Made by a program: the position numbers and the translations under genes. DNA of 64,000 nt, taken from assembly GCA_022820025.1 (NCBI GenBank), contig JAJEGF010000025.1:145522-209521 (forward strand), written 5' to 3'. How positions within the stretch are numbered: position 1 is the stretch's first letter; each line of letters starts with the position of its first letter. Source of the DNA: Chloroflexota bacterium. Its GTDB lineage: Bacteria > Chloroflexota > UBA11872. A model generated the notes under the pieces. That model saw only the letters and a program-made list of their open reading frames with translations, was not told the origin of the DNA and searched no databases. Below are positions 47,192 to 61,410 of the stretch, in pieces.

Positions 47192-47916
47192 GCGCCGCGC
47201 CAGACCCGGATGCGGCCGTGGTGGCCGACTTCGGGAACTGCTTGCGACACGTCGATTTGAGCGCAGAAGGTCACGTCGTCCCAGAGGCCGACGGGTTCGA
47301 GGAGATGAGCGCTGGTAGACGCGGCGAGGGCGGCGTCGGCGGAGGGGTAGGCGTTGGTGACGTGGAGGGCGGTGACGGCGGATTCGTCGAGGTTGAGGTC
47401 GGGTGACTTTGCCAGCAGGCGCTGGACGATGAGGCCGGCGGTGTAGAGGTCGTCGAGGGCGAGGGCGCCCGAGCGGCCGGCGCAGGCGATGGTGATGGTT
47501 GGGGTGTCGGGGTCCTCGAGGAGGTGGTCGGCGACGGCGGTGGCGTTGCGGAGGGCGGCGATGAAGGTGCGGCGGGCGTGGCCCCAGCGTTCGATGGCGT
47601 AGGCGCCGTTGGTGGTGGAGAGGACGGCGCGGCGGCCGGTGAGGTCGATGTGCCGGAACTCGCGGGGGGAGTTGCCGTGGTCGAATCCTTCAGGCGGGAG
47701 GCCGCCGCGTTCGCCGCAGAGGAGCGTGTTGGGGCCGAGTTGCTCGGCGGCCTGGCGGGCGGAGGCGACGTCGCCCGCGATCCAGACTTCGGGGTCGCCC
47801 GCTTCCGCCATGGCGATCAGGGTGGTGGTGGCGCGGATGACGTCGACGACTGCGCAGACGCCGCGGGGATCGGGTTCGAGGGTTCCCGGTAGTAGTTCGA
47901 CGCGGACGAGGGTCAC
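47188..47916 (-). CDS. comB: 2-phosphosulfolactate phosphatase family
   Basis: VVDVIRATTT, GERGG, GNSP, STTNG, LDD. Confidence 0.88.
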   Translation of the reverse strand: MTLVRVELLPGTLEPDPRGVCAVVDVIRATTTLIAMAEAGDPEVWIAGDVASARQAAEQLGPNTLLCGERGGLPPEGFDHGNSPREFRHIDLTGRRAVLSTTNGAYAIERWGHARRTFIAALRNATAVADHLLEDPDTPTITIACAGRSGALALDDLYTAGLIVQRLLAKSPDLNLDESAVTALHVTNAYPSADAALAASTSAHLLEPVGLWDDVTFCAQIDVSQAVPEVGHHGRIRVWRGA

Positions 47917-49277
47917 AGGCGAATGGTCTTCCAGCGGCCGGAGGTGAAGCGGACGAGGGAGGCGATGGCGATGGTGACGTAGTTGACGCCGGCGCCGATC
48001 CACATGCCGGTCAGGCCGAAGCCAAACACGAGGCCCAGGCTCAGGGCCAGGGGTACGCGGATGATCCAGAGGGCCAGCAGGGAGATCAGCAGCATGGCGC
48101 GGGTGTCCCCGGCGCCGCGGAGGGCGCCGGGCATGGTGGTGGCGACGCCCACGAGCGGCATGAAAAGGGCGACGGTGCGCACGGGGAGTTCAGCGGCGTC
48201 GAGGACGGCGGGGTCGGTGGTGAAGGTGGATAGGAGGGCGCGCGGAAACAGGAACATGAGCACGCCGACGGCGGTGGAGACCAGGGTGGCGCCGATGGCG
48301 GCCTCGCGGCCGTAGCGGTGGGCCAGCTCCGGATCGCGGGCGCCGAGGCTCTGGCCGACCGCCGTTGAGGCGGCGATGCCGAGGCCCAGGGACGGCATGT
48401 AGGCGAGCGAAATGATGGGGCCGACGACGTTCTGGGCGGCGAAGGAAACGGTGCCCAGCTGCAGGCCGATGATGCTGAAGGCCATGATGCCGCCGACGGA
48501 GATGAACATCTCGCCGACGGCGGGGCCGGAGACCTTCATCAGGCGGCGTTGCATGATCCAGTCGGGGCGATAGGAACCGAAGGCCCCGGCGCGGTGGGGT
48601 GAGCGGTAGATGGTGGCGAGCATGAAGATGGCGGTGGCAACCCGCGCGACGCCCATGGCTACGGCGATGCCGAGCAGGCCGAAGCCGGCGTTCACCAGGA
48701 GCAGGCCGATTACCAGGTCGACGGCGGCCATCAGCACCGAGCCGAGCATGGGGGTGCGGGTGTCGCCGACGCCGCGCTGGACGGCGCCGACCATGACCAC
48801 CACGGTCTGCAAGGGGGCGCTGAGGGCGCTGATGGCCAGGTATGGGGCGGCCATGGCGACGATGTCCTCGGAGCCGCCGACCAGGCGCAGGATCGGATCC
48901 GCCAGGAAGACGAGGACGAAGACGGAGATGAAGGAGGCGGCGACGGCGGTGAGCATGCCCTGGCGGCCGGCGGTGTGGGCGGTGGCGAGGTCGCGGGCGC
49001 CGTAGGAGCGGGCGACGAGGGCCAGGGCGCCGATGCTCATGCCGAAGAACAACGAGAAGGTGAAGAACATCAGGAAGTTGGAGATGCCGGCGGCGGCCAG
49101 GGCCTCGGCGCCCAGGCGGCCGGCGAGCGCGGTGTTGATCATGAACAGCGCGCTCTGCATCAGGTTCTCGAGCATGGCGGGCCAGCCGAGCGTGAAGAGG
49201 CGGCGGCGGATCTGGGGGAGGGTCAACTCGGGCTGGCCCGTGACGGGGGACGATGCGACCGCGCGTGCGGACGGCAA
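47913..49277 (-). CDS. MATE family efflux transporter
   Basis: LGWPAMLE, RGVGDTRTPM, RGAGDTR; TTG start after GGGAG. Confidence 0.9.
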   Translation of the reverse strand: MPSARAVASSPVTGQPELTLPQIRRRLFTLGWPAMLENLMQSALFMINTALAGRLGAEALAAAGISNFLMFFTFSLFFGMSIGALALVARSYGARDLATAHTAGRQGMLTAVAASFISVFVLVFLADPILRLVGGSEDIVAMAAPYLAISALSAPLQTVVVMVGAVQRGVGDTRTPMLGSVLMAAVDLVIGLLLVNAGFGLLGIAVAMGVARVATAIFMLATIYRSPHRAGAFGSYRPDWIMQRRLMKVSGPAVGEMFISVGGIMAFSIIGLQLGTVSFAAQNVVGPIISLAYMPSLGLGIAASTAVGQSLGARDPELAHRYGREAAIGATLVSTAVGVLMFLFPRALLSTFTTDPAVLDAAELPVRTVALFMPLVGVATTMPGALRGAGDTRAMLLISLLALWIIRVPLALSLGLVFGFGLTGMWIGAGVNYVTIAIASLVRFTSGRWKTIRL

Positions 49278-49444
49278 CCGGCTGCTCCCGTGCTTTGAGG
49301 TGGTGAAGGCGACCCATGCGGATTCTACGGCGGGGGGAGGAATGGGGCGGGGAAATGGGGGGCTCGCGCGCAATAAGAGTTTCTTCCAAGAAACTCTTGA
49401 GGCGGCGCGGGGTGTGTTGGGGAAGGAGCGAGGGGGGAGCAGGA

Positions 49445-49570
49445 GGTTGGGAGCATTTGGTCTGGCTGGGTAGCCAGGGGTGGCCTGGGTGAGGTCTGGT
49501 GGGTGGTTGCTGGTGGGTCCCCGCCCCGGATCGCGTCCGGGGCAGGCTCTCCGCGGCGATGACGGGGTGG
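49445..49570. repeat. Repeat unit A, copy 1 (carries nested CCCCGGATCGCGTCCGGGGCAGGCTCT)
   Basis: Exact blocks GGTTGGGAGCATTTGGT, AGCCAGGGGTGGCCTGGGTG, GATGACGGGGTGG shared with 50061-50213. Confidence 0.8.
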
Positions 49571-50010
49571 TTGCTGCTGCTTTGGCGAGGGAAAGCGCGG
49601 CGGGCAGGGGGAGCGGATGGGGCTGCGGGCGGGCGCCTGGCGGCGGACTTTGGTCTGGGGGTGAAGGGGGGAACTGTCTCCGGCTGGCCGGAGACAGTTT
49701 GGGCGGATTTTTTTGGCGGGTGGGAGGGCGGAAGGGGGAGGCGAGGAGTGCGCGTAGCGAAGTGAGAAGCGAGAAGCGGAGGGGACGGGAAAGCGAGAGC
49801 TGCGAACCGTGAGACGGGCAGGAAGGGGCGAGGGCAGGGACGTGGGATCGGAAGGGGACGGGCAGCGATGGGGAAAGGTTCAGGAGGAAGGCGAGCAGGG
49901 TGGCGAGGCGTGGGGGGAGCGGGAACGCGGCGGAGGCGAGGGGCATTCGGGGTGGGGCGGTATGTCTTACTCAGATAGAGTACGGCGTGGTACCGTGGAA
50001 GTCAAGGGGA

Positions 50011-50045
50011 AGAAGGGGAGAGGGTAGAGGGCAGAGGAGTGAGAC
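50011..50045 (+). repeat. Purine heptamer array ending AGAGGAGTGAGA (solo copy)
   Basis: agaaggg gagaggg tagaggg cagagga gtgagac. Confidence 0.75.
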
Positions 50046-50060
50046 GGAGGGGGAGTAGGT

Positions 50061-50213
50061 GGTTGGGAGCATTTGGTTGAGGCGGGTTGCCAGGGATGCG
50101 GGGATTCGGATGCATCAAGGGCTTGCGGTGATGGGAGCCAGGGGTGGCCTGGGTGCGCTGGGGTAGCGGGTTGCTGCTGGGTCCCGGCCGGGGACGCCGG
50201 GATGACGGGGTGG
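50061..50213. repeat. Repeat unit A, copy 2
   Basis: Same three exact blocks as copy 1. Confidence 0.8.
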
Positions 50214-50281
50214 GGGCCTAGGGAAGGAGTGAGCTGAGAGAAGTGAGCGTTGAGCGAAGAGCGGGAAGAGCTGGATGGCGC

Positions 50282-50377
50282 GGGAGGATTGGGCGGGTTC
50301 GGAACGGGCGATGGACGCGGACGGTCAGGCGATCAAGGGGTTGGGGTGCTGGGTGTGGGAGCGGTTTTGGGGGCGGT
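50282..50377 (+). repeat. Repeat unit B, copy 1 (about 95 bp)
   Basis: 35-bp core CGATGGACGCGGACGGTCAGGCGATCAAGGGGTTG identical at 51016-51050. Confidence 0.85.
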
Positions 50378-50497
50378 TAGGGCGCCGGAGACGGAGTCGC
50401 AGCGGGGTGGGCTGGGTATGATCGTTGACAGGATTCTTTGGGCGGCACTGGGATCCTTCAACGGGCGCGATGGGAGCGTCGCGAGAGGGGACATGGG

Positions 50498-50695
50498 ATG
50501 ACGACCGTACCGGTCCAAGAGCCGCCGTTGACCAGATCGGACCTCCGGGACGAACTGGATCGGACACTGAAGCACTACGCCACGAAGGCTGACGTCGCCA
50601 ACCTCAAGGTCTGGATCGTCGGTCTGTTGCTGGTCGTGGTGCTGAATGTGGTTGGTACCGCCGGGGCCATTGTGGCGGCTTTTCTCGCAGGCTAG
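50498..50695 (+). CDS. Small coiled-coil + C-terminal TM protein (DUF1640/CCDC90-like)
   Basis: GAGGGG RBS; YATKADVANLKVWIVG followed by a hydrophobic tail. Confidence 0.7.
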   Translation: MTTVPVQEPPLTRSDLRDELDRTLKHYATKADVANLKVWIVGLLLVVVLNVVGTAGAIVAAFLAG

Positions 50696-50707
50696 GTCGC
50701 GGGGGCA

Positions 50708-50920
50708 CCCTCGGGAGAGGGTGAAGAGGGGGCTGGCGGAGGGGAGAAGACCCCTCACCGAATGCCGCAGACGGCTTCTGCCTCTCCCCCAGGAGAGGGT
50801 GAAGAGCGGGCGGCACTCCCGGGGATTCTGGTGCCTCTGGAGTTGGGTGCCCGGGGGACCCCTCACCGAATTCGGCGGGTACGCCGAGTCTGCCTCTCCC
50901 CTCGGAGAGGGTGAAGAGCG
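50708..50920 (+). repeat. Three palindromic units CCCCTCACCGAAT-hairpin-CCTCTCCCC-GGAGAGGGTGAAGAG (first is partial)
   Basis: GGAGAGGGTGAAGAG occurs three times; CCCCTCACCGAAT twice. Confidence 0.8.
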
Positions 50921-50988
50921 ACCTGCTGCTGTGACTTTGGTGGCCGCGGTTGCTGCGGGGCTTCGCGGGTGGCGGTGGCGGGGGCCGC

Positions 50989-51082
50989 GGGAGGATTGGG
51001 CGGGTTCGGAAGAGCCGATGGACGCGGACGGTCAGGCGATCAAGGGGTTGTGGTGCTGGCTGTATGAGCGGTTTGGGGCGGT
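50989..51082 (+). repeat. Repeat unit B, copy 2
   Basis: Direct repeat of 50282-50377. Confidence 0.85.
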
Positions 51083-51424
51083 GCGGGCGATAGATCAGTT
51101 GGAGGAGCGCCACATTCGCGCTGCGCAGCTCGTGGGTTAGAATTCCACTCGGTCGACCGGGCTTCGGCCGTGTGTGCCGTTGATCACGGCTTCACACAGC
51201 GTCCACCGAAACTGACATCCTTAATAGGGCGGGTTGTCGATGCCACAGTCGATCAACTTAATATCTATCTACATTTTTTTATCTAGATTTGCCGAATCAA
51301 GCACACGCCGAACCTCGTCTAATCCCTGGTCCGACTTCTCCGGGTCTGCTTTCCACCGCGTTTCTTGGCGTTTGCAGGACTTAGAGCTAGGCGACGGTAA
51401 GTTCCGGTCGGCCTGGAGCGCTCG

Positions 51425-54400
51425 GTGAACGACGCCTCAGCCGGTCGCGAACTGTTCATCGTTGACAATAGCGTAGCCGGATGGACCGGACTCCGTTACC
51501 TCGAAGAATGGTCGAGTATCGCCCGATCCTTTGATATAGCAACTGGATTCTTCGAGATCGGCTCGCTTCTTGCTCTAGATGGAAAGTGGCAAGAGCTTGA
51601 GAAGATTCGCATTTTGATGGGTTCAGAAACAACCCAGCGCACGCGCAAGGCGTTTTTCGACGCCGTCCAGGACCAAGCTGTCAATGCACTCGACCGGAGT
51701 ATTGAATCTGACAAGCAGCGTAATCCCTTCCTACATGGTGTAAAAGATGTTGTGGAGGGACTGCGCAGCGGTCAGATCGAGTGCCGCGTGTACGACAAGG
51801 CAAAGTTCCACGCGAAGACTTACATCACACATTCCAAATTGGAAATTGTTGGGTCGCAGGCCCTGGTAGGTTCGAGCAATTTCACGAAACCAGGCCTCAC
51901 CGAGAACATCGAACTCAACGTACAGATTCAGAGCGCTCGCGAAGTGGCACAGCTACAGGATTGGTTCGAGGCCCATTGGAGTGAAGGAAGGGAAGCAACC
52001 GATGCGGTAATTGAGACGATCGAGCGGCACGTTCGCCTTTTCACACCATTCGAAGTCTATGCGAAGGCACTCCAGGAGTTTTTTCGGGGTCACGAACTGA
52101 CGGCCACCGAATGGGATGAGACCAGATCAAGGGTTTTCCCACAGCTTGACCTTTATCAGAAAGAAGCTTACTGGGCCCTTATGAAGATTGCCCGCCAGCA
52201 CCGGGGGGCATTCCTCTGTGATGGTGTTGGACTTGGAAAGACTTTTGTTGGTCTGATGCTCATCGAGCGGCTAGTTCTCCACGAAGGAAAGCGAGTTGTG
52301 CTTTTTGCGCCAAAGGCTGCGAGAGAGGGCGTGTGGGAGCCACACTTGCGGGAATGGCTCCCTCACATTGGGGGCGGAGCAGCCGACTTCAGCAATTTGG
52401 CTGTGTTTAGCCATACTGATCTCAGCAGGAAAGGCGACTTCCCAGAGCGGTTCAGCCGAGTGGCCGAGTTAGCTGATGTAGTCATCATCGACGAAGCACA
52501 CCATTTCAGAAACCCAGGCACGAGGGGAAGTGAGAGCGGGAAACAGCCGTCTCGCTACTACCGACTCTACGATCTTCTAGACAACGCGGATCGTTCGAAA
52601 ACGTTATTCATGCTTACGGCAACGCCGATCAACAATCGGCTAAGTGACTTTCGTCACATGGCTGAGTTGTTTACGCGTCGCGACGAATCGTACTTTGCCC
52701 GGACTTTGGGTGTGAACAATCTGAGAGCGCACGTGAATCAGATGGAGCGGGCATTTCGCGAAAGCGTAGGTCGTGAAGTGGTGGATGTGGCTGATCAGAT
52801 CACTGAGGCGCAGAGCATCCTTTCGGCCGACGCCATTTTCCGTCAACTAGTAGTTCAACGAAGTCGCGCATACGCTCGGGAGAGCCAGATTCGCGAGACC
52901 GGAAATGCGGCAGCGTTCCCAACGCGACAGCCGCCACAGGTCGCTGCATATTCTATACGACAGTCCTATGGTCAATTGCTGGAACTGTTTGAGAAGGCTT
53001 TCACAAAGGAGAATCCGCTGTTCACGCTTCCCATGTACTATCCTCTCTACTGGTACAAGGGTCCAGACAAGGACGTTGATCCCTTCGAGCAAAACCGTCA
53101 GTTGCAGGTGGTCGGTCTTATCCGGACGAACTTCCTGAAGCGCTTCGAGAGTTCAGTAACAGCCTTTGAGCTATCGTGTAGTCGACTCCTAATGAAACTC
53201 TTAGCCTTCATTGAGGTCCACAGTGAGACTGAGGGTGAAAGAAGGCGTCTTGATCGATGGCAAGCGCAGAATGAAGAGATACTCGACTATATAGCACAAC
53301 GCCAGCGGGACATCTGGGACGATGATGAGGACGAAGCCGAGGACGATGACATTGTTCCCGCAGAGATGATCGATGCTGTTGAGCGTCTTGACCGCAAGGA
53401 ATACGAGGTCGGAGAGATGATCTCCGAGACGTTCCTGGACCTCGATCAGATCGTGCAGTTTCTAAACGAGGCCCGGAAGTTTGAGCCAGGTCACGACGAC
53501 AAGCTCCTCAAGCTGATCCAACTCTTGAAGTCCACAGACCTCGCTGGTCAGAAAGTCCTTGTGTTTTCGGAGTTTGCAGACACGGCTCGGTACCTAAAGC
53601 GCCAGCTCGATGCGGAGAACATCGACGGGGTAGCCCAATTGGATAGCGCGTCCACCGCCAATCGGGCTCAGGTGATCAGGCGCTTTTCGCCGTACTACAA
53701 CGGGAGTTCGCCGGCTGAGCTTAGCAACGCTGGTCTCTCGGAAATCAGGGTCCTCGTATCCACTGACGTGCTGTCAGAAGGACTCAACTTGCAAGATGCC
53801 ACTCGGATGATCAACTACGACATCCACTGGAATCCTGTTCGACTGATGCAGAGGATCGGACGCGTTGACCGCCGAATGAATCCAGAGATTGAGCAGCAGA
53901 TCGCATCCTATCAACCTAATGCCGCAGAGTCGCGTGGAGAGGTCAGCTACTGGAACTTCTTACCTCCCGATGAGCTCAACAACATCCTGACGCTATACAC
54001 AAGGGTTACCCAAAAGACCCTGCTTATTTCTAAGACGCTTGGAATTGAAGGCAAGAAGCTCTTGACGCCCGAAGATAACTTCGAAGCCCTCAGAGAATTC
54101 AACCACGCTTACGAAGGCACACGTACCGCAATAGAAGAGATGCATCTCGAGTACCAGGACATGCTACAGGGTGACCCGACACTGGAAGAGCATCTGAGGC
54201 GCTTACCCGGTTCCACGTTCAGTGGACGGGAGCGGGTGAAGGATGGAGTGCGGGGAGTCTTCTTTTGCTATGCACTTCCTGCCCTTGATGCGGAGATCGG
54301 TGATTTTACCGATGAGGCAGGGTCAACGAGATGGTACCTCTTCGACTTTGACCGAGATGAGACTCTAGAAGAACCTGGCGAGATCGCCAATAGCATTAGG

Positions 54401-54565
54401 TCGGATCGCACGAGCCTTCGCCGATGTTCTACGAGTGAAAAGATGCTTGTCAAAGTCCGAGAGAAAGTCGAGAGGCACATAAGGAACACCTACCTCAAGC
54501 GGGTCGATGCTCCGATAGGAGTGAGTCCGTCGCTCAAGTGCTGGATGGAGCTCAACGAAAGCTAA
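51425..54565 (+). CDS. PLD-family nuclease fused to SNF2-type SF2 helicase
   Basis: FHAK...GSSN PLD motif; CDGVGLGKT, DEAHHFRN, LTATP, SEGLNLQ, QRIGRVDR. Confidence 0.9.
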   Translation: MNDASAGRELFIVDNSVAGWTGLRYLEEWSSIARSFDIATGFFEIGSLLALDGKWQELEKIRILMGSETTQRTRKAFFDAVQDQAVNALDRSIESDKQRNPFLHGVKDVVEGLRSGQIECRVYDKAKFHAKTYITHSKLEIVGSQALVGSSNFTKPGLTENIELNVQIQSAREVAQLQDWFEAHWSEGREATDAVIETIERHVRLFTPFEVYAKALQEFFRGHELTATEWDETRSRVFPQLDLYQKEAYWALMKIARQHRGAFLCDGVGLGKTFVGLMLIERLVLHEGKRVVLFAPKAAREGVWEPHLREWLPHIGGGAADFSNLAVFSHTDLSRKGDFPERFSRVAELADVVIIDEAHHFRNPGTRGSESGKQPSRYYRLYDLLDNADRSKTLFMLTATPINNRLSDFRHMAELFTRRDESYFARTLGVNNLRAHVNQMERAFRESVGREVVDVADQITEAQSILSADAIFRQLVVQRSRAYARESQIRETGNAAAFPTRQPPQVAAYSIRQSYGQLLELFEKAFTKENPLFTLPMYYPLYWYKGPDKDVDPFEQNRQLQVVGLIRTNFLKRFESSVTAFELSCSRLLMKLLAFIEVHSETEGERRRLDRWQAQNEEILDYIAQRQRDIWDDDEDEAEDDDIVPAEMIDAVERLDRKEYEVGEMISETFLDLDQIVQFLNEARKFEPGHDDKLLKLIQLLKSTDLAGQKVLVFSEFADTARYLKRQLDAENIDGVAQLDSASTANRAQVIRRFSPYYNGSSPAELSNAGLSEIRVLVSTDVLSEGLNLQDATRMINYDIHWNPVRLMQRIGRVDRRMNPEIEQQIASYQPNAAESRGEVSYWNFLPPDELNNILTLYTRVTQKTLLISKTLGIEGKKLLTPEDNFEALREFNHAYEGTRTAIEEMHLEYQDMLQGDPTLEEHLRRLPGSTFSGRERVKDGVRGVFFCYALPALDAEIGDFTDEAGSTRWYLFDFDRDETLEEPGEIANSIRSDRTSLRRCSTSEKMLVKVREKVERHIRNTYLKRVDAPIGVSPSLKCWMELNES

Positions 54566-54569
54566 GGCA

Positions 54570-57500
54570 ATGTCGATTGAATACCGAACTAAGCTCGCCA
54601 CCATTCGACGCTTTGATCAGTTGATCGAGTTTCTACGCGACGAGATGGGCTGGCCGATCGTCAGCGACGACTTTGAGGAGATGACCTTCGAATACAGCGC
54701 AGAGGAGCTTGGGATTGACGCTGTGAATGCAGCGAAGATTCAAGAGATCAGACGCCTACGTCCGTTGGCCGTGAATCAGCCCTGGGGAGTATTCTTAGTC
54801 AGATTTGAGCCGAAGCGGCTTCCGGTCGTGGCCTTACGCAGCATCCTCGGTCGTGTTGCGCAAAAGAGACGCGCCTCGTCGGTCACAGCAGATCAGCCCA
54901 CCTGGGCGATGGACGACTTACTCTTCATTTCGAATTACGGTGTGGGAGAAAGTAGGCAAATCAGCTTTGCCCACTTCTCTGCATCACCCAGCAACAAGCT
55001 TCCGACTCTCAAAGTGATCACATGGGATGAGATGGATACAGCGCTGCATCTTGATCAGGTGGCTCGCGAACTCACCGAAGGCCTCGCGTGGCCAGTCGAC
55101 GAGGACAACATCAACGCTTGGCGCGATAAGTGGCGCACTGCATTCACGTTGGTACATCGAGAGACAATTACAACCGCCCAAAAGCTCTCCGTTCGTCTCG
55201 CTGAGCTCGCCAGTGTGACCCGCGACCGAATCAACGGAGCACTTGCAATTGAGAGCGATAGCGGCCACGTAACTCGCCTCATGCACGCATTTGCTGAGAC
55301 TCTGGTACAAGACCTTGATCCTGACAGCTTCGCCGACATGGTTGCTCAGACCATTGCTTACGGTCTCCTCTCAGCGCGCGTTACGGATCCTCAGAGGTCC
55401 TCTGGAGACGTTTTGGTCCGTCATATGCGAACCAATCCGCTCCTACGCGAGTTGATGACAGCTTTCTTGGATTCTTCTGGCCAACAGGGTGCCATGGGCA
55501 TCGACTTCGATGAACTGGGCATTGCAGAAGTCATCGAACTCCTAGACAACGCAAATATGGATGCAGTAGTCCGTGACTTCGGCGATAAGAACCCACGCGA
55601 AGATCCAGTTATCCACTTCTATGAGAGTTTCCTCACGGAGTATGACAAGGAAAAGAAGGTCGCGAGGGGCGTCTTTTATACACCGCGCCCTGTCGTTTCA
55701 TACATTGTGCGTTCAATTGATAAACTGCTGCGAACCAAGTTCGGCCTGACCGACGGTCTAGCTGACGTAGCTACTTGGAAACAAATGACGGAAAGACACA
55801 CTGGGATGGTGATTCCCGAAGGGATCTCGCCGGACCAGGCTTTTGTACAAGTACTAGATCCGGCTACAGGCACCGGAACTTTTCTGGTCGAAGTCATAGA
55901 TTTGATCCATAGCACCCTTGTCGGTAAGTGGAAGGCGCAGGGCTACCGGCGTCATGACATTGACACGCTTTGGAACGAGTATGTCACTAACCATCTCCTC
56001 ACACGGCTCCATGGATATGAAATTCTGATGGCACCATACGCCATTGCACACGTGAAATTTGGACTAAAGCTGTACGAGACAGGATACAGGTTCGAATCCC
56101 AAGAACGGGCAAAGATTTACCTCACTGACGCGCTAGAACCTGCACAGAGCTTTTCCGACTTGATGGACTTCGCTATACCGGCACTTGCGCACGAGGCGAG
56201 AGCGGTCAATCAAATAAAGAGCGAAAGTAGATTTACAGTGATATTTGGAAACCCACCGTATCGAGGCGAGTCGGCTAACAAAGGAGGCTGGATATCGGAT
56301 TTATTACGGGGAACACGGGGCAAACAGCGCACCGAGAACTACTTTGAGGTCGACGGTGCCCCACTCAAGGAGCGCAATCTAAAGTGGTTGAACGATGACT
56401 ACGTTAAGTTCCTTCGCCTAGCTCAATCGGAGATCGAGAGATCTAGATTTGGAGTTATCGGCTTCATTACAAATCACAGTTATCTGGACAATCCGACATA
56501 TCGCGGTATGCGCGAGAGTCTTCAAGCGGCCTTTGGCAGTTGTAGCTTCCTGGATCTACACGGAAATTCCAACAAGGGAGAACGGACGCCCGAAGGAAGG
56601 AGCGACAAGAACGTATTTGACATTCGGCAAGGCGTCGCAATTAGTCTGTATGTCAGTACGCCGAGCTCTCGTCGTGACCGCGCTGAAGTGTCCCACGCAG
56701 ATCTATGGGGTGAACGGGAATCAGGTGAAGGAGGCGGGAAATACGGATGGTTGTCAACCAATGACATTAATAGCACTGATTGGACAGTGTTGAATCCGGA
56801 GTCGCCGCGATACCTGTTTATTCCCCGCGACGAAACACTTGCGAAGGAGTATGGTAGAGGGTGGAGCATTGTCGATGTGTTCCCCATTAATGCAACGGGC
56901 ATCGTTAGTAAGAGGGATCACATTGCCTACCACTTCGACAAAGACAACCTCTATCGAACACTCAATGACTTTTCCACTATGCCCGTAGACGAGATTCGTC
57001 AGAGATATAGATTTCGAGAGAGCCGGGACGGAAAGCTTGAGTTTGTTAAGGATCATGTAGTGAGTTATGGTATCAAAGAAGGATATGTACATCAATGCCT
57101 ATATCGTCCGTTCGACCACAGGTGGACATACCATACGGACAGGTCTCGTGGATTCCTTGGGTGGCCTGTATACGACGTTATGCGTCACATGACGGCGGGT
57201 CCGAATCTTGGGTTGGTAACCACCCGCCAATGCCAGCGGAATTGGAGTGCATTGGTTTCCAGTACGATAATAGCTCACAAGGCATTGGCTACGTATGATA
57301 TAAACTCACTGTTTCCCTTGTACACCTTTCCAACCGAAGGCGAAGAGCAGCTTGGCTTAGATCGTCAACCGAATCTTAGCATCGAATTCGTCTCAGCACT
57401 TGGATCAGCCCTTGGACTTGGCTTCGTGTCCGACGGCACTGGTGACCTGATGTCATCCTTCGGGCCAGACGACGTGTTCAACTATATCTATGCGGTGTTT

Positions 57501-57974
57501 CACAGTCCGCAGTATCGTAGTCGCTATGCGGACTTCCTAAAGGCCGACTTCCCGCGGGTACCGCTTGTGACAGACCGCTGTCGGTTCGCGGCTCTCAGCG
57601 ATCTCGGCAAGCGCCTGACGTCTGTTCACCTGTTAGAGACTGAGAGGTCCGGTGCTCCTACTTTTCCTCAAATTGGTGATAATCTCATTAGAAGAGTTCA
57701 GTATGCGCCGCCCACGGGCACTACACCAGGTCGGGTCGAAATCAGCCGAGATCAGTACTTTGAGGGCATAGCTCCGGAGATTTGGGAATTTGCAATAGGC
57801 GGCTACCGGCCTGCGGAGAAATGGCTGAAGGATCGGAAAGGCCGAGTCCTCGCCGACCATGAAGCTGATCAATACCGAAAGATCGTAGCGGCCCTTGTGG
57901 ACACTCATTACCTAATGAACGAAATCGACAATCTGATCGACCAGCATGGTGGCTGGCCCCACGCGTTCCTGTAG
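54570..57974 (+). CDS. N6-adenine DNA methyltransferase (gamma) with Type ISP-like C-terminal target-recognition domain
   Basis: GVFYTP, DPATGTGTFL, GNPPY; YRPFD, FLKADFPRVP, IGGY...KWLKDRKGR. Confidence 0.88.
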   Translation: MSIEYRTKLATIRRFDQLIEFLRDEMGWPIVSDDFEEMTFEYSAEELGIDAVNAAKIQEIRRLRPLAVNQPWGVFLVRFEPKRLPVVALRSILGRVAQKRRASSVTADQPTWAMDDLLFISNYGVGESRQISFAHFSASPSNKLPTLKVITWDEMDTALHLDQVARELTEGLAWPVDEDNINAWRDKWRTAFTLVHRETITTAQKLSVRLAELASVTRDRINGALAIESDSGHVTRLMHAFAETLVQDLDPDSFADMVAQTIAYGLLSARVTDPQRSSGDVLVRHMRTNPLLRELMTAFLDSSGQQGAMGIDFDELGIAEVIELLDNANMDAVVRDFGDKNPREDPVIHFYESFLTEYDKEKKVARGVFYTPRPVVSYIVRSIDKLLRTKFGLTDGLADVATWKQMTERHTGMVIPEGISPDQAFVQVLDPATGTGTFLVEVIDLIHSTLVGKWKAQGYRRHDIDTLWNEYVTNHLLTRLHGYEILMAPYAIAHVKFGLKLYETGYRFESQERAKIYLTDALEPAQSFSDLMDFAIPALAHEARAVNQIKSESRFTVIFGNPPYRGESANKGGWISDLLRGTRGKQRTENYFEVDGAPLKERNLKWLNDDYVKFLRLAQSEIERSRFGVIGFITNHSYLDNPTYRGMRESLQAAFGSCSFLDLHGNSNKGERTPEGRSDKNVFDIRQGVAISLYVSTPSSRRDRAEVSHADLWGERESGEGGGKYGWLSTNDINSTDWTVLNPESPRYLFIPRDETLAKEYGRGWSIVDVFPINATGIVSKRDHIAYHFDKDNLYRTLNDFSTMPVDEIRQRYRFRESRDGKLEFVKDHVVSYGIKEGYVHQCLYRPFDHRWTYHTDRSRGFLGWPVYDVMRHMTAGPNLGLVTTRQCQRNWSALVSSTIIAHKALATYDINSLFPLYTFPTEGEEQLGLDRQPNLSIEFVSALGSALGLGFVSDGTGDLMSSFGPDDVFNYIYAVFHSPQYRSRYADFLKADFPRVPLVTDRCRFAALSDLGKRLTSVHLLETERSGAPTFPQIGDNLIRRVQYAPPTGTTPGRVEISRDQYFEGIAPEIWEFAIGGYRPAEKWLKDRKGRVLADHEADQYRKIVAALVDTHYLMNEIDNLIDQHGGWPHAFL

Positions 57975-58150
57975 CGGCTAAGTGAAGTGAAATACGGACC
58001 GTCCTAGCTCCAGAGGCCTCTTGGTGCATGTCGCGACATGGTGGAGAGAGCGATCGTGGGATCATTGGGCGAAGTCGGTGGTGATTGGTCGATGGCTGTG
58101 CAGGAGAGGATCGGGAACGTGAGATGTCTTGAGAGACCTCGGCCCGAAAA

Positions 58151-58183
58151 CCCCTCACCCTGACCCTCTCTCCCAGGAGGGGG
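58151..58183 (+). repeat. CCCCTCACCCTGACCCTCTCTCCCAGGAGGGGG palindromic element
   Basis: Same family as 8068 and 50750; sits at the right edge of the low-GC island. Confidence 0.7.
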
Positions 58184-58253
58184 ATTGAGGTCGGCTCGCC
58201 TGGGGTGGCACGGACTACCATGACGTAATCCCGATTGGCGAGAGGTCCCCCCT

Positions 58254-59426
58254 ATGTCAGTGCGCCGTGTCGTGGTTTGGGTTGGGGTGGCGGCGTTGGC
58301 GGCGGTGGGTGGTGTGGCGGTGGCGAGGCGGGGGGTGCCGGAGGGGTTGGTTGATTGGGGGTTGGCGGGGCGGACGGCAAGGCGGTTGGCGGGGGAGCCG
58401 GAGGGGTGGCGGCCGGATTCGGAGCTGATTGCGCATTACGACGGGATTGTCCGCAGGAGCTTTGAGGCGGTTTCGGCGTATACGGGTGTGCCGATGGAGC
58501 TGGGGTCGGACGAGGTTCGGGTGCTGGGTCGGGCGGATTGGATCGATGCGAACCTGGTGAATTTTGAGCGGTTGCTGGCGCCGCTGGCGGTGGCGTACCA
58601 ACACACGCGCACGGGTTCGGGGGCGCTGGGGCGGGTGGCGGCGCACGGGACGCGGTTTACGGTGACGGGGCAGATTGCGTTGCTGCTGGGGTACCTGGGG
58701 CGGCGGGTGCTGGGTCAGTACGACATCCCGATCCTGGACGCGGAGGCGGAGTCGGCGGGGATCTATTTCGTTGAACCGAATCTCGAGCGGGTGGCGGCGA
58801 AGGCCGGCGTTGACCTGGAGGCGCTGCGGTTGTGGGTGGCGTTGCATGAGTCGACGCATGCGTACCAGTTCCGCGTAGGCGATCCGCCGTGGTTGCGGGG
58901 GTATACGGCGGGGCTGATCCAGGATTACCTGGCGGAGGCGATCCGGGCGCTGGAATCCGGGGAACGGCTGGGGCAGCGGCTGCGGGATATGTGGCGGCGG
59001 TTCGACCGGGACGATCCGGCGGGCACGGGCCTGATGCGGCTGGCGCTGACGGACGCGCAAGCTGAATCGCTGGGGCGGATCCAGGCGCTGATGACGGTGA
59101 TGGAGGGGTATAGCAATCACGTGATGCGGGCGACGGGTCGCGAGGTGATTCCGGGGTATGAGGTGCTGGAAGCGCGGATGAAGGCGCGGGAACGGGCGCA
59201 GGGGGCGTCGTCGCGGGTGCTGAACCGGTTGCTAGGGCTGGATTTGAAGCTGGAGCAGTACAAGGTTGGGGAGGCGTTTGTGGAAGAGGTGGTTGGGTTG
59301 CGGGGGTTGGGGTTTATGAATGGGGTGTGGGAGGGGCCGGAGATGTTGCCGACGTTGGAGGAGACGAGGGATGCGGAGGGGTGGATAGAGAGAATCGAGG
59401 GGAGAGGGGAGAGGGAAGAGGAGTGA
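58254..59426 (+). CDS. Zinc-dependent metalloprotease (zincin-like, DUF2342 type)
   Basis: RADWIDAN, WVALHESTH (HExxH), MEGYSNHVM, KLEQY. Confidence 0.88.
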   Translation: MSVRRVVVWVGVAALAAVGGVAVARRGVPEGLVDWGLAGRTARRLAGEPEGWRPDSELIAHYDGIVRRSFEAVSAYTGVPMELGSDEVRVLGRADWIDANLVNFERLLAPLAVAYQHTRTGSGALGRVAAHGTRFTVTGQIALLLGYLGRRVLGQYDIPILDAEAESAGIYFVEPNLERVAAKAGVDLEALRLWVALHESTHAYQFRVGDPPWLRGYTAGLIQDYLAEAIRALESGERLGQRLRDMWRRFDRDDPAGTGLMRLALTDAQAESLGRIQALMTVMEGYSNHVMRATGREVIPGYEVLEARMKARERAQGASSRVLNRLLGLDLKLEQYKVGEAFVEEVVGLRGLGFMNGVWEGPEMLPTLEETRDAEGWIERIEGRGEREEE

Positions 59427-59428
59427 GA
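59388..59428 (+). repeat. Purine heptamer array, left of four-helix-bundle gene
   Basis: gagaggg gagaggg aagagga gtgaga. Confidence 0.75.
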
Positions 59429-59529
59429 GGGGAAGGGGAGGAAGATGGGGAGGAAGATGGGATGGGAATGGGGGAGGATGGGCGTGAGGTTGGGGCGGTT
59501 TCTGGGCGGGGAGCTGAGGGAAATGGCGG

Positions 59530-59904
59530 GTGCATTACCGTGAGACGATTCTGTGGCAAAAGGCGATGCGGATCGCGCGCGAGGTCTATGGGCTGACGCC
59601 GCGGCTTCCGCGCGAAGAAACGTATGGGATGCGCGCCCAGATCACCCGGGCGGCGGTGTCGATTCCAAGCAATGTTGCGGAAGGGTGGACGCGCGACACG
59701 GCGAGAGACAAGGCGCGATTCCTGGCAATTGCGCAAGGGTCACTGGCTGAAACTGAGACCCTGCTGACGCTCTGTGAAGACCTCGGATGGTTCCCTACGC
59801 CTGAGACGCAGAACCTGCGCGGCCTGCTGGACGAAGTGAGCCGGATTTTGACGGTGATGAGGCGGAGGAGAAGGGAAGAGGGGTTGAAGAAGGGAAGAGG
59901 GTAG
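59530..59904 (+). CDS. Four-helix-bundle protein (23S rRNA IVP / Avd-like family)
   Basis: WQKAM, PREETYG, RAAVSIPSNVAEG, AQGSLAETET. Confidence 0.92.
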   Translation: MHYRETILWQKAMRIAREVYGLTPRLPREETYGMRAQITRAAVSIPSNVAEGWTRDTARDKARFLAIAQGSLAETETLLTLCEDLGWFPTPETQNLRGLLDEVSRILTVMRRRRREEGLKKGRG

Positions 59905-59954
59905 AGGGAACGAGGAAGGTGAGAGGGGAGAAGGGAGAGGGGAGAGGAGTGAGA
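59888..59954 (+). repeat. Purine heptamer array, right of four-helix-bundle gene
   Basis: aagaggg tagaggg ... gagaggg gagaagg gagaggg gagagga gtgaga. Confidence 0.75.
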
Positions 59955-61403
59955 AGGAAGAAGAGACGGGGTGGGGTGTCGCGGCGGGGGGTGTTGGGAT
60001 TGGGGCTGGCGGCTGGGGCGGGGGTGGTGTTGGGGGCTTGTGGGGAGGCGGAGGTGGTGAAGGTGGAGCGGCCGGTGTTGCCGAGTGCGGGGCGGGCGAC
60101 GACGGTGTCGATGGAGGTAACTGAGCGGGCGCCGAGTGGGGACGGTGGGTTGCCGGCGGCGGGGGCGGAGTATCCGATCTCGCTGGCGCTGCCGACGTTT
60201 GGCGGGTCGAACGTGGGGGTGGAGCAGATTCTGGTCTCGGCACGGTCGGGCGTGCGCGCAGAAACGCAGGGCCGGTACCGGTATTCGGACGTTCCGCTGC
60301 AGTCGATCCTCGGATACCGCTGGAATTACACGGAGTTCCTGGACGACGGCGCGGGCGCGGCGCGGGCGGACCTGGTGGTGCTGGAGGGCTGGGACCTGGA
60401 GAACCTCGTGTCCAACGCGCTGCTGGAACCGCTGGACGATCACCTGACGAGCGACGCGCGGTTCGATCCGGACGATTACTGGCCGGGGATCCTGGCGGCG
60501 GGCCAGATCGACGGGGTTCAGTATGCGCTGCCGGTGGCGGCGGCGCCGTGGGTGACGGTGGTGAACCTGGATCTGGCGAAGGCGGCGGGATTTGCCGTAC
60601 CGCCGCGCGAGGCCTGGGATGCGGATGCGTTTGTGCGCGGCGCGGCGGCGATGCATCAAACGCCGAACGTGGAAGGACCGAGGCCGACGGTTGGGGTGGG
60701 TATTGACGTTGAACCGTTGTGGATGGCGCCGGATCAGCTTTGGAACGACGCGCCGAGCTTTGTGTTCTTGCAGTCGACGCTGGGGGCACTGCCGGATGGG
60801 CAGGGGTCGTTTGCCGGGCTGCGCTCGGCGGAGGCGCGGGCGACGCTGGAGACGTTCCGGGAACTGGCGACACGGTACGGCATCTCACCGGACCAGCGGA
60901 GACGGAACGTGGACGCGTCTGACCTGATCGACGACGGGCTGCTGGGCATGGCGGTGTTCGGGCTGTCGGGCCGGTGGTTTGGGAATCTGATCGGCAGTTT
61001 TCTGCCCAGCAACAACGTGCTGTATCCGTTTCCGAATTTTGGGGACGGGCGGACGCCGGCGTTTCTCTGGCTGATGTTGGGAATCGGCGCGGGCAGGGCC
61101 AATCCACGGATTGCCTACGACGCGCTGCGAGCGCTGGAACGGCACGCGGCGGCGGGGGCCAATGTGCCGGGGTGGCGAACCTCGGCGGAGGATCTGCAGC
61201 GGCGGTTCCCGTCGTATCGGGACGACGAAGCGCAGATGGTGGTGGACCTGATGCAGAACGCCTCGTACGTGAGGCTGAGCCGGGCGGCATGGGGGGCGTT
61301 TATCGCGGAGGTGGACGCCGGGATCATCCTTGAGGGTGTGAGCGCGCAGGAGGCGCTGGACGGGGTGGCGCGGCGGCTGGAGGAGCTGGGCGCGCGGGTG
61401 TAG
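59949..61403 (+). CDS. Extracellular solute-binding lipoprotein (Tat signal)
   Basis: SRRGVL twin-arginine motif plus LGAC lipobox; LLEPLD, GVQYALP; start approximate. Confidence 0.82.
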   Translation: MRRKKRRGGVSRRGVLGLGLAAGAGVVLGACGEAEVVKVERPVLPSAGRATTVSMEVTERAPSGDGGLPAAGAEYPISLALPTFGGSNVGVEQILVSARSGVRAETQGRYRYSDVPLQSILGYRWNYTEFLDDGAGAARADLVVLEGWDLENLVSNALLEPLDDHLTSDARFDPDDYWPGILAAGQIDGVQYALPVAAAPWVTVVNLDLAKAAGFAVPPREAWDADAFVRGAAAMHQTPNVEGPRPTVGVGIDVEPLWMAPDQLWNDAPSFVFLQSTLGALPDGQGSFAGLRSAEARATLETFRELATRYGISPDQRRRNVDASDLIDDGLLGMAVFGLSGRWFGNLIGSFLPSNNVLYPFPNFGDGRTPAFLWLMLGIGAGRANPRIAYDALRALERHAAAGANVPGWRTSAEDLQRRFPSYRDDEAQMVVDLMQNASYVRLSRAAWGAFIAEVDAGIILEGVSAQEALDGVARRLEELGARV

Positions 61404-61410
61404 GGGCCGA

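What the first reader, a model, noticed from the sequence alone, without database searches (positions are those of the whole stretch)
51425..57974. Candidate split Type ISP-like defence system: PLD-nuclease/SNF2 motor plus MTase-TRD subunit
Seen: two genes 4 nt apart on a lower-GC island with palindromic repeats on both sides. Gene 1 has one PLD motif and a complete SNF2 motif set. Gene 2 has a roughly 250-aa N-terminal region, a gamma N6-MTase and a Type ISP-like TRD, with no helicase motifs and no nuclease motif I can see. Known: Type ISP enzymes (LlaGI, LlaBIII) carry an Mrr-type nuclease, SF2 motor, MTase and TRD in one chain; DISARM has separate PLD, SNF2 and MTase genes plus DrmA/B; CglI/NgoAVII use a PLD nuclease with a helicase and an m5C MTase. 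This arrangement matches none exactly. Inference: an ATP-dependent two-subunit R-M in which the ISP recognition module recruits a different nuclease-motor.
Basis: partly seen in the sequence, partly recalled or inferred. Interest (0 to 1): 0.75.

Follow-up and report, generated by a model that had tools for sequence, protein, structure and literature searches.

The report
Two-gene PLD-SNF2 restriction-modification system
A horizontally acquired two-gene island encodes an adenine methyltransferase with a DNA-recognition domain but no nuclease of its own, always paired with a motor protein that carries a phospholipase-D-type nuclease. It is most likely a widespread, unnamed, ATP-driven restriction-modification system that annotation pipelines currently file as a one-gene enzyme.

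Summary
Gene 1 (51425-54565, 1046 aa) is a single-HKD PLD domain fused to an SNF2-like ATPase, with all catalytic motifs invariant in 198 homologues. Gene 2 (54570-57974, 1134 aa) is a gamma-class N6-adenine MTase with a Type_ISP_C recognition domain. They lie 4 nt apart on a 52.5% GC island in a 67% GC chromosome.

The pairing is obligate. Of 80 species-level loci found with gene 1, 77 have gene 2 directly downstream. Of 24 metagenome loci found with gene 2's N-terminal domain, 23 have gene 1 directly upstream.

That 200-aa domain gives a confident model (pLDDT 88) with no structural or profile match and no conserved PD-(D/E)XK triad. Stand-alone relatives of gene 2, including Borrelia lp56, carry a canonical PD…EAK nuclease there and have no PLD-SNF2 neighbour in the flanks examined.

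So the nuclease has been moved to a separate motor subunit. The recognition domain is hypervariable (33% pairwise identity) while the rest is conserved.

The best reading is a two-subunit ATP-dependent R-M system. Its closest known effector is MANTIS MtsD (Gao_RL, Type-2 BR). It is not a member of Type ISP, IIG, MANTIS or DISARM. I found no paper describing the pair. The mechanism is inferred and untested.

The parts
50699..50920 (.). Three REP-like palindromic units (…ACCCCTCACC…CTCTCCCC..GGAGAGGGTGAAGAG) just left of the island. They are probably genomic repeat elements marking an insertion-prone intergenic region, not part of the system.
   Evidence: 5 matches against 0.05 expected
51141..51424 (+). 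Non-coding leader of the island. It contains an AT-rich stretch (about 51220-51300) that presumably holds the promoter, and a GGAG 8 nt upstream of the GTG start.
   Evidence: No consensus sigma-70 site was found here, so the promoter assignment is inference.
51425..54565 (+). Gene 1: PLD(HKD)-SNF2 motor-nuclease, 1046 aa.
   Evidence: Pfam PLDc_2, ResIII, SNF2-rel_dom, Helicase_C. More than 5900 homologous 90% clusters, the closest 120 at 75-86% identity. Motifs invariant in 198 sequences.
51806..51886 (+). The single HKD catalytic motif of the PLD domain (FHAKTYI … GSSNFT; H129, K131, N152).
   Evidence: One HKD per chain means an active site needs two chains (established for Nuc, BfiI and MtsD).
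52220..52636 (+). SNF2 ATPase lobe 1: Walker A DGVGLGKT, DEAHHF, TATPINN.
53501..53872 (+). SNF2 ATPase lobe 2 (Helicase_C; motifs V-VI STDVLSEGLNLQ, HWNPVRLMQRIGRVDR). Best PDB sequence matches are RapA and the Sulfolobus SNF2 protein.
53915..54562 (+). C-terminal 216 aa of gene 1. No family match, but conserved (median 68% identity across 80 loci).
54570..57974 (+). Gene 2: N-terminal domain, helical linker, gamma N6-adenine MTase and Type_ISP_C recognition domain, 1134 aa.
54570..55169 (+). Gene 2 N-terminal domain (NTD, aa 1-200). An alpha/beta domain of unmatched fold that occupies the place of the PD-(D/E)XK nuclease of stand-alone relatives. Proposed adaptor to gene 1.
   Evidence: AF2 pLDDT 88. 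No Foldseek or profile match. Found only at the N-terminus of gene-2-type proteins, in 756 representative clusters. Its history tracks gene 1 (r 0.63) better than its own TRD (r 0.17).
55170..55604 (+). Helical segment (aa 201-345). The part from aa 275 aligns with LlaGI from residue 602, upstream of its MTase.
55605..56873 (+). Gamma-class N6-adenine MTase core (motif I LDPATGTGTF at 55854-55883; motif IV NPPY at 56250-56261).
56874..57974 (+). Type_ISP_C target-recognition domain and C-terminal end. The TRD part is hypervariable between homologues.
   Evidence: Pfam E 3e-76. Median 35% identity to loci, 33% mean pairwise.
58146..58190 (.). REP-like palindromic unit right of the island (AAAACCCCTCACCCTGACCCTCTCTCCCAGGAGGGGG).

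Best explanation
The island is a two-subunit, ATP-dependent restriction-modification system.

Gene 2 is the recognition and modification subunit. Its TRD and MTase read a short asymmetric sequence and methylate one adenine (m6A) on one strand, marking host DNA as self. Gene 2 has no nuclease. In the position where stand-alone relatives carry a PD-(D/E)XK nuclease, it has a conserved 200-aa domain of unmatched fold. I propose this domain, together with the adjacent helical segment, couples gene 2 to gene 1.

Gene 1 is the restriction subunit. It is an SNF2-type dsDNA translocase fused to a single-HKD PLD nuclease. At an unmethylated site the complex would switch on the ATPase. The motor then tracks along DNA and cuts when two PLD half-sites come together, either as a standing dimer or when two complexes converge from inverted sites.

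Status of each step:
- Shown here: the domain content, the intact catalytic motifs, the obligate gene pairing, the absence of a recognisable nuclease in gene 2, the nuclease-for-NTD exchange relative to stand-alone relatives, the TRD hypervariability, and horizontal spread.
- Inferred: physical contact through the NTD, hemimethylation, translocation, site-orientation dependence, and cleavage itself.
For: 1. Domain content and intact motifs.
2. Operon structure with a 4-nt gap.
3. Gene 2 lies directly downstream of gene 1 in 77 of 80 species-representative loci across many phyla. Gene 1 lies directly upstream in 23 of 24 metagenome loci found with the NTD alone; the 24th has only 208 nt of upstream sequence.
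4. The NTD has no PD-(D/E)XK triad. Conserved positions include W28, W112, F136, W152, W188, Q70/P71 and D116, whereas E80 and K82 are substituted in some members. The pLDDT-88 model has no PDB or BFVD match and there is no profile hit in PDB.
5. Relatives that share 31-40% identity from residue ~192 onward have GAPDF/Y...GH(L/V)EAKD at the N-terminus in the two read, with no PLD-SNF2 gene within 6 kb. The Borrelia lp56 relative likewise has none within 3 kb. Borrelia BBE02 and BBQ67 are reported as bifunctional enzymes that methylate one strand of asymmetric motifs.
6. Mean pairwise identity over 58 complete pairs: gene 1 0.72, NTD 0.69, MTase 0.58, TRD 0.33. The NTD's identity matrix correlates with gene 1 (r 0.63) more than with its own TRD (r 0.17).
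7. Low-GC island between housekeeping genes. Homologous loci sit among TA, PIN, Vsr/Dcm, GmrSD, RT and MORC-like genes.
8. A precedent exists for an HKD-SNF2 effector acting downstream of a separate MTase: MANTIS MtsD and Type-2 BR systems.
Against: - There is no experimental datum for any member of this family.
- No fusion protein joining gene 1 and gene 2 was seen, so no 'Rosetta stone' supports contact.
- The NTD's role is deduced only from position, conservation and co-occurrence. It could instead be a dimerisation, DNA-binding or regulatory domain.
- Foldseek can miss very divergent PD-(D/E)XK folds, and E80/K82 are fairly conserved (E/D in 62 of 71 sequences, K in 57 of 71).
- MtsD itself has not yet been shown to cut DNA in vitro.
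- Two of the 80 loci have gene 1 followed by other genes, a kinase-TPR protein and a NYN-domain protein.
Confidence: 0.7

Rival explanations
1. Gene 2 is an ordinary self-contained Type IIG/IIL enzyme that both cuts and methylates. Gene 1 is an independent or merely accessory defence protein that happens to be adjacent.
For: PADLOC's best model for gene 2 is REase_MTase_IIG (PDLC03610, 690 bits). PGAP names relatives 'type ISP restriction/modification enzyme'. E80-x-K82 at the end of a beta-strand resembles half of a PD-(D/E)XK motif.
Against: The PADLOC alignment covers only residues 192-1122, so the model's N-terminal 150 positions do not match. There is no conserved acidic partner for E80/K82, and those two residues vary. 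There is no fold or profile match to any nuclease, although DrdV and LlaGI are in the PDB copy searched. True stand-alone relatives have a clear PD...EAK motif and no gene 1 nearby. Adjacency of 77/80 and 23/24 across phyla is not chance.
Confidence: 0.07
2. A BREX- or DISARM-like exclusion system. Methylation marks self, but the SNF2 motor blocks or remodels incoming DNA without the PLD domain making double-strand breaks, for example by nicking, by acting on another substrate, or by serving as a scaffold.
For: Gene 1 gives partial hits to DrmD, BrxHII and DpdE models. MtsD cleavage could not be reconstituted in vitro. Restriction mechanisms in BREX-type systems remain unclear.
Against: H129, K131 and the GSSN motif are invariant in 198 sequences, so catalysis is under selection. 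The PLD domain also matches the NgoFVII restriction-endonuclease PLD family. None of the extra BREX, DISARM or MANTIS genes is present.
Confidence: 0.12
3. Gene 1 is a modification-dependent (Type IV, SauUSI-like) PLD-helicase nuclease and gene 2 is an unrelated orphan or regulatory methyltransferase.
For: SauUSI has a PLD-SF2 architecture and targets modified DNA.
Against: Gene 1 has no recognisable modification-reader or TRD domain, and no sequence hit to SauUSI in PDB. A modification-dependent nuclease strictly co-inherited with an active MTase would risk self-attack. The strict NTD-gene 1 association argues for joint function.
Confidence: 0.03
4. Not a defence system: an epigenetic regulator or a chromosome-maintenance or repair module.
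For: SNF2 proteins such as RapA have housekeeping roles, and RapA is the best PDB sequence match. R-M methyltransferases can affect transcription.
Against: The island is anomalously low in GC. The pair shows 62-82% identity across unrelated phyla, a patchy distribution, a hypervariable TRD, and defence-island neighbours.
Confidence: 0.05

Closest known systems
MANTIS (Gao_RL; Type-2 BREX-related 'BR' system): MtsA-D
   Same: The restriction effector is a separate protein with an N-terminal single-HKD PLD nuclease fused to a Swi2/Snf2-type ATPase, acting downstream of a separate adenine MTase that determines specificity. MANTIS hemimethylates short asymmetric sites. Gene 1 gives partial hits to the PLD-helicase anti-phage models (NF042964 148 bits; PADLOC PLD_Helicase 81 bits).
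   Different: MANTIS needs four genes: a DUF499 AAA+ ATPase (MtsA), DUF3780 (MtsB), an MTase with a nested TRD (MtsC), and MtsD. Here there are two genes, no AAA+ loader and no DUF3780. The MTase is of the Type ISP/IIG kind with a C-terminal TRD. Gene 1 scores far below the family cut-off (148 against 1100 bits).
Type ISP R-M enzymes (LlaGI, LlaBIII)
   Same: Gamma N6-adenine MTase followed by a Type_ISP_C TRD (Pfam E 3e-76; PDB 5FFJ E 5e-29). A helical segment before the MTase aligns with LlaGI from residue 602. The overall logic is ATP-dependent motor plus nuclease plus MTase plus TRD.
   Different: Type ISP enzymes are one polypeptide, with an Mrr-type PD-(D/Q)XK nuclease and a different SF2 motor. 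Here there are two polypeptides, a PLD nuclease and an SNF2/RapA-like motor. The NTD has no counterpart.
Stand-alone Type IIG/IIL-like enzymes with a Type_ISP_C domain (PADLOC REase_MTase_IIG PDLC03610; Borrelia BBE02/BBQ67; P. aeruginosa pTROUS1 WP_003137453; DrdV 7LO5)
   Same: They are the closest sequence relatives of gene 2 from residue ~192 to the end: 31-40% identity in plasmid records, and 690 bits to PDLC03610. They have the same helical-MTase-TRD layout. BBE02 and BBQ67 methylate one strand of asymmetric motifs.
   Different: They carry a canonical N-terminal PD...EAK nuclease, act as single chains without ATP, and have no PLD-SNF2 neighbour in the flanks examined. Gene 2 has the NTD instead and always has gene 1.
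DISARM class 1 (DrmA, DrmB, DrmC-PLD, DrmD-SNF2, DrmMI)
   Same: It combines an SNF2 helicase, a PLD protein and an N6-adenine MTase. Gene 1 partially matches DrmD and DrmC models.
   Different: DrmA and DrmB are absent. PLD and SNF2 are fused here. DrmD scores 135 bits against a 610-bit cut-off, and gene 2 gave no DrmMI hit.
Type III R-M (Mod + Res) and CglI/NgoAVII
   Same: Type III also has two gene products, with an MTase subunit that recognises an asymmetric site and a separate SF2 ATPase-nuclease subunit. CglI/NgoAVII use a PLD nuclease with a separate ATP-driven motor (titles; own knowledge).
   Different: Type III Mod is a beta-class dimeric MTase and Res has a PD-(D/E)XK nuclease. In CglI the PLD sits on the recognition subunit, the motor is DEAD-Z1, and the MTase is m5C.

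Membership tests
Type ISP R-M | All activities in a single polypeptide | tested here: not met
   Two ORFs separated by a stop codon and 4 nt. No fused homologue appears among the listed hits.
Type ISP R-M | N-terminal Mrr-type PD-(D/Q)XK nuclease | tested here: not met
   The nuclease is a PLD/HKD domain (PLDc_2, RE_NgoFVII). No Mrr hit was found.
Type ISP R-M | Gamma N6-adenine MTase followed by a Type_ISP_C TRD | tested here: met
   PF18135 E 3e-76; DPATGTGTF and NPPY motifs; LlaGI 5FFJ E 5e-29.
Type ISP R-M | Translocation-collision cleavage between head-to-head sites | not testable with these tools
   Requires biochemistry. The mechanism is described for LlaBIII/LlaGI.
Type IIG/IIL (MmeI, DrdV, BBE02/BBQ67 type) | PD-(D/E)XK nuclease in the same chain as the MTase and TRD | tested here: not met
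   The NTD has no conserved triad, no Pfam, PDB-profile or Foldseek match. The PADLOC IIG model aligns only from residue 192. Relatives do have PD...EAK.
Type IIG/IIL (MmeI, DrdV, BBE02/BBQ67 type) | Helical, gamma-MTase and TRD module homologous to the family | tested here: met
   PDLC03610 690 bits; DrdV 7LO5 E 1.7e-28; 31-40% identity to plasmid-borne members.
MANTIS / Gao_RL / Type-2 BR | HKD-Swi2/Snf2 helicase-nuclease effector | tested here: inconclusive
   The architecture is the same (described). Sequence membership fails: NF042964 scores 148 bits against a 1100-bit cut-off.
MANTIS / Gao_RL / Type-2 BR | DUF499 AAA+ ATPase, DUF3780 protein and an MTase with a nested TRD | tested here: not met
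   The island holds only two genes. Gene 2 has a C-terminal Type_ISP_C TRD.
DISARM | DrmA (helicase) and DrmB (DUF1998) core genes | tested here: not met
   Absent from the island and its flanks. DrmD and DrmC models score below cut-off.
BREX | PglZ, BrxC and PglX core | tested here: not met
   No such genes are present. PglX models give only E 5e-5 or weaker.
Restriction-modification systems in general | A sequence-specific MTase genetically linked to a nuclease, with variable specificity and horizontal spread | tested here: met
   Actual restriction and methylation activity is not testable here.

The most novel reading that the evidence does not exclude
This is the first recognised member of an unnamed, very widespread class of two-component ATP-dependent R-M systems. 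Gene 1 relatives occur in at least 380 species-level genomes and in thousands of protein clusters. In this class a IIG/ISP-type MTase-TRD has exchanged its PD-(D/E)XK nuclease for an adaptor domain of unmatched fold, which recruits and licenses a PLD-SNF2 translocase-nuclease. The class would be a minimal, tractable counterpart of MANTIS and BREX-related systems, and an evolutionary bridge between single-chain R-M enzymes and multi-gene methylation-based defences.
Probability: 0.5. Interest if true: 0.72.

Novelty: new variant of a known kind. Interest (0 to 1): 0.62.

Why it matters
- **Annotation.** Current pipelines would call this locus a one-gene 'Type IIG' or 'type ISP' enzyme plus a 'helicase-related protein'. 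That misses that the MTase chain has no nuclease and that restriction probably resides in the neighbour. Thousands of loci across many phyla would be re-annotated.
- **Mechanism.** It would be the simplest known system in which an HKD-SNF2 motor-nuclease is directed by a separate MTase-TRD. The same effector logic in four-gene MANTIS has resisted in-vitro reconstitution, so a two-protein version could make the coupling of site recognition, ATP-driven translocation and PLD cleavage directly testable.
- **Evolution.** The nuclease-for-adaptor exchange is a clear example of modular evolution in R-M enzymes.

Tried and rejected
- **NTD as a degenerate MmeI-like PD-(D/E)XK nuclease.** I recalled a D70-X9-E80-X-K82 motif for MmeI, and gene 2 has Q70-X9-E80-P-K82. 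Tests gave no support. There is no MmeI_N or other Pfam hit at E<=10. E80 and K82 vary in the wider family. Neither model matches any nuclease structure. The NTD profile finds nothing in PDB. I treat it as unsupported, not excluded.
- **First AF2 model of residues 1-345.** It was too weak (pLDDT 66) for fold search. I replaced it with a 1-200 model built on a deeper alignment.
- **Fused gene1-gene2 proteins.** None appear among the best 120 gene 1 hits or the 150 best NTD representatives.
- **A conserved third gene.** None is universal. RT, MORC-like ATPase, DUF932 and others occur only in subsets of loci.
- **Nostoc plasmid relative (L085).** Its third kind of N-terminus shows no significant similarity to the NTD.
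- **Similarity of the 93-nt repeat to the downstream Zincin_2 gene.** Not convincing; the sequence is G-rich and low in complexity.
- **Literature.** Six searches for the pair found nothing. REBASE, DefenseFinder and newer PADLOC releases could not be consulted.
- **SauUSI as closest structure for gene 1.** There is no sequence hit. RapA and SNF2 proteins are the best matches.

Full report
**1. What is in the window**

Two long ORFs lie on the + strand: 51425-54565 (GTG start, 1046 aa) and 54570-57974 (ATG start, 1134 aa). They are separated by TAA-ggca-ATG, a 4-nt gap. The segment 51141-58000 has 52.5% GC, against 67% on both flanks. It contains no other credible ORF.

The flanking genes are housekeeping: a MatE transporter, an amine oxidase, DUF2298 and PMT_2 membrane proteins on the left, and a Zincin_2 peptidase and a DAO oxidoreductase on the right. 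REP-like palindromic units lie on both sides, three at 50699-50920 and one at 58146-58190. The pattern gives 5 matches against 0.05 expected by chance.

**2. Gene 1**

Pfam finds PLDc_2 (residues 54-185) and the NgoFVII restriction-enzyme PLD domain, followed by ResIII/SNF2-rel_dom and Helicase_C. There is one HKD motif (FHAKTYI 128-134, GSSNFT 149-154). The SNF2-type ATPase motif set is complete: DGVGLGKT, DEAHHF, TATPINN, STDVLSEGLNLQ and HWNPVRLMQRIGRVDR. All of these are invariant or nearly so in an alignment of 198 homologues.

By sequence, the best solved-structure matches are RapA and the Sulfolobus SNF2 protein, not SauUSI. No NCBIfam model reaches its cut-off: the PLD anti-phage protein model scores 148 of 1100 bits and DrmD 135 of 610. 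The best PADLOC model is C3a139 'HKD+Snf2', a family first listed as a neighbour of type III CRISPR loci.

The public gene call is 64 aa too short. Residues 8-60 are conserved across homologues, so the GTG at 51425 is the better start.

**3. Gene 2**

Residues 769-1117 are a Type_ISP_C domain (E 3e-76). Residues 346-768 are a gamma-class N6-adenine MTase, with DPATGTGTF and NPPY both conserved.

By sequence it matches LlaGI (5FFJ, from residue 275), DrdV (7LO5, a Type IIL enzyme) and LlaBIII. PADLOC's REase_MTase_IIG model PDLC03610 scores 690 bits, but it aligns only residues 192-1122 to model positions 150-1075. The N-terminal part of that family does not match.

**4. The N-terminal domain (NTD) of gene 2**

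This was the key question, because an active PD-(D/E)XK domain there would make gene 2 an ordinary Type IIG enzyme.

- Residues 1-200 have no Pfam match even at E<=10.
- A search of 1.84 billion representative proteins finds the domain in 756 clusters. In the hits listed that span it, it sits at or near the N-terminus, and the full-length ones are 1060-1560 aa. It is never fused to a PLD-SNF2 protein.
- Across 70 diverse members the invariant positions are mostly aromatic (W28, W112, F136, W152, W188), plus Q70/P71, D116 and R90. E80 and K82 are replaced by S, N, A or R in some members, and there is no conserved acidic partner.
- A first AlphaFold model of residues 1-345 was weak (pLDDT 66). 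A second model of residues 1-200, built on a 78-sequence alignment, is confident (pLDDT 88, pTM 0.86).
- That model has no significant Foldseek match in the PDB (best E 0.02, TM below 0.25) or in BFVD. The PDB sequence set includes DrdV and LlaGI.
- A profile of the domain finds nothing in the PDB sequences.

**5. What the closest relatives look like**

In the plasmid collection, 105 records encode relatives of gene 2. They share 31-40% identity only from about residue 190 onward, and PGAP calls them 'type ISP restriction/modification enzyme'. I read three N-termini.

- The P. aeruginosa pTROUS1 protein reads ...CGAPDFIIKNGNLVIGHLEAKDLG..., a textbook PD-X13-EAK motif.
- A relative in a phage contig, next to terminase and portal genes, reads ...VGAPDYIVRLGNAPIGHVEAKDID....
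- A Nostoc plasmid relative has a third kind of N-terminus, with no obvious PD...EXK motif and no significant similarity to the NTD.

None of the plasmid or viral loci examined has a PLD-SNF2 gene within the flanks read, which were 6 kb for most and 3 kb for Borrelia.

The Borrelia hits include the gene on lp56 of strain B31. The lp25 and lp56 enzymes BBE02 and BBQ67 are reported as bifunctional PD...(D/E)xK enzymes. They restrict transformation and methylate one strand of asymmetric motifs.

The contrast is sharp. Relatives with their own nuclease stand alone. The NTD form has no nuclease.

**6. The pairing is obligate**

- Starting from gene 1, a scan of one genome per GTDB species found at least 380 relatives. 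In the best 80 loci (62-82% identity), gene 2 lies directly downstream on the same strand in 77. These loci come from Chloroflexota, Acidobacteriota, Pseudomonadota, Planctomycetota, Spirochaetota, Actinomycetota, Gemmatimonadota and others.
- The three exceptions are a contig that ends 200 nt after gene 1, a gene 1 with a divergent C-terminus followed by a kinase-TPR protein, and a locus where a NYN-domain gene follows before the contig ends.
- A few further loci have one or two genes inserted between the pair.
- Starting from the NTD alone, 23 of 24 metagenome loci have gene 1 directly upstream. The 24th has only 208 nt of upstream sequence.
- All three gene 2 homologues whose contigs I looked up, four loci in all, also have gene 1 upstream.

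**7. Evolutionary pattern**

The closest 120 gene 1 homologues are 75-86% identical, against 56-69% for gene 2. Mean pairwise identities over 58 complete pairs are:

| Segment | Mean pairwise identity |
|---|---|
| Gene 1 | 0.72 |
| NTD | 0.69 |
| Helical segment | 0.72 |
| MTase | 0.58 |
| TRD | 0.33 |
| C-terminal end | 0.55 |

The NTD's pairwise-identity matrix correlates with that of gene 1 (Spearman 0.63). That is better than its correlation with the MTase (0.41) or the TRD (0.17) of its own polypeptide.

The picture is a constant frame (gene 1, NTD, helical segment) into which variable MTase-TRD modules are exchanged. This is the usual signature of diversifying specificity in R-M systems. 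It also shows that the NTD belongs functionally with gene 1. Related sequences inflate such correlations, so this is supporting evidence, not proof of contact.

**8. Most likely mechanism**

Gene 2 recognises an asymmetric site and methylates one adenine. This is inferred by homology to Type ISP, IIL and Borrelia enzymes.

Gene 1 supplies both the ATP-driven dsDNA translocase and the nuclease. A single HKD motif cannot form a PLD active site alone, so two gene 1 chains must meet. They could do so as a standing dimer, like MtsD, or when complexes converge from inverted sites, as in Type ISP enzymes.

The NTD and the helical segment are the obvious candidates for the coupling element between the subunits. 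In LlaGI the aligned region precedes the MTase, and a coupler domain joins motor and MTase. Whether methylation itself needs the motor, as it needs the ATPase in MANTIS, is open. All of this paragraph is inference.

**9. Comparison with known systems**

- **Type ISP:** not a member. The system has two chains, a PLD rather than an Mrr nuclease, and an SNF2-like motor.
- **Type IIG/IIL:** not a member, because the MTase chain has no nuclease.
- **MANTIS / Gao_RL / Type-2 BR:** not a member. The AAA+ ATPase and DUF3780 are absent, the MTase is of a different type, and gene 1 scores far below the family cut-off.
- **DISARM and BREX:** not a member, because the core genes are absent.

It works most like MANTIS on the restriction side and like Type ISP/IIL enzymes on the recognition side. 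Distant gene 1 homologues on plasmids (25-29% identity) sit in loci with other kinds of MTase. The HKD-SNF2 effector therefore appears to be a module that has been combined with different modification modules.

**10. Novelty**

Six full-text searches found no description of this pair. PADLOC 2.0 and NCBIfam have no dedicated models. Public names for members are 'hypothetical protein', 'helicase-related protein' and 'superfamily II DNA or RNA helicase'.

I could not consult REBASE, DefenseFinder or subscription literature. I rate the finding a new variant of a known kind: methylation-based defence with an HKD-SNF2 effector. It is common, with more than 5900 clusters at 90% identity passing E<=1e-20 for each gene.

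**11. Limits**

No experiment supports any step. The NTD's role is deduced from position, conservation and co-occurrence only. A very divergent nuclease fold could escape Foldseek.

Noticed in passing
homologues of gene 2, e.g. L004:8001-11942 (P0067); P0052, P0069, P0071, P0083 and others: 16 of the 120 closest gene 2 homologues carry an extra C-terminal Peptidase_S24 (LexA-like self-cleaving) domain, giving proteins of 1300-1390 aa. This hints at a link between this R-M system and the SOS response or RecA. The window's gene 2 lacks the domain.
   Followed up: partly
L020, L021, L022, L028, L043, L082 (for example L022:11956-15690): A reverse-transcriptase (RVT_1) protein lies just downstream of gene 2 in six homologous loci. 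It is 1245 aa where complete (L022) and is cut by the locus end in most of the others. It may be a co-localised defence-associated RT.
   Followed up: partly
L004:11935-14079, L042, L045, L112:3912-5876: A MORC-like GHKL ATPase gene (HATPase_c_3; 714 aa in L004, 655 aa in L112) follows gene 2 directly in L004 and L112. Homologues of the L004 protein follow it in L042 and L045. It may be a recurrent third component or a neighbouring system.
   Followed up: partly
window 50279-50371 and 50986-51078: A 93-nt direct repeat (91% identity, 707 nt apart) lies just left of the island, within G-rich sequence that has only doubtful ORFs. Its origin is unexplained.
   Followed up: partly
window 51425-51616: The public gene call for gene 1 (982 aa) starts 64 codons downstream of the GTG at 51425. 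The omitted residues are conserved in homologues, so the call is probably truncated.
   Followed up: yes
L115:5413-8790: A stand-alone relative of gene 2 with a PD...EAK nuclease motif is encoded in a viral contig that also carries terminase and portal genes. Phages or prophages therefore carry the single-chain form.
   Followed up: partly
window 44000-64000: There is a strong excess of G over C on the + strand in the flanks (GC skew up to 0.50 in 1-kb windows, for example 49500-50500 and 58500-60000), but not inside the island (about 0-0.09).
   Followed up: no
L090 (Lactiplantibacillus plantarum plasmid NZ_CP048925.1): A distant PLD-SNF2 homologue of gene 1 heads an operon with a DUF4391 protein, a 'site-specific DNA-methyltransferase' and a DEAD/DEAH helicase. 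This is another combination of this effector type with a different modification module.
   Followed up: no
L085:5608-8910 (Nostoc cf. commune plasmid pANSO36D): A gene-2-like protein (39.6% identity from residue 147) has a third kind of N-terminus, neither the NTD nor an obvious PD...EXK motif. It has no PLD-SNF2 neighbour, and an HTH regulator lies upstream.
   Followed up: partly
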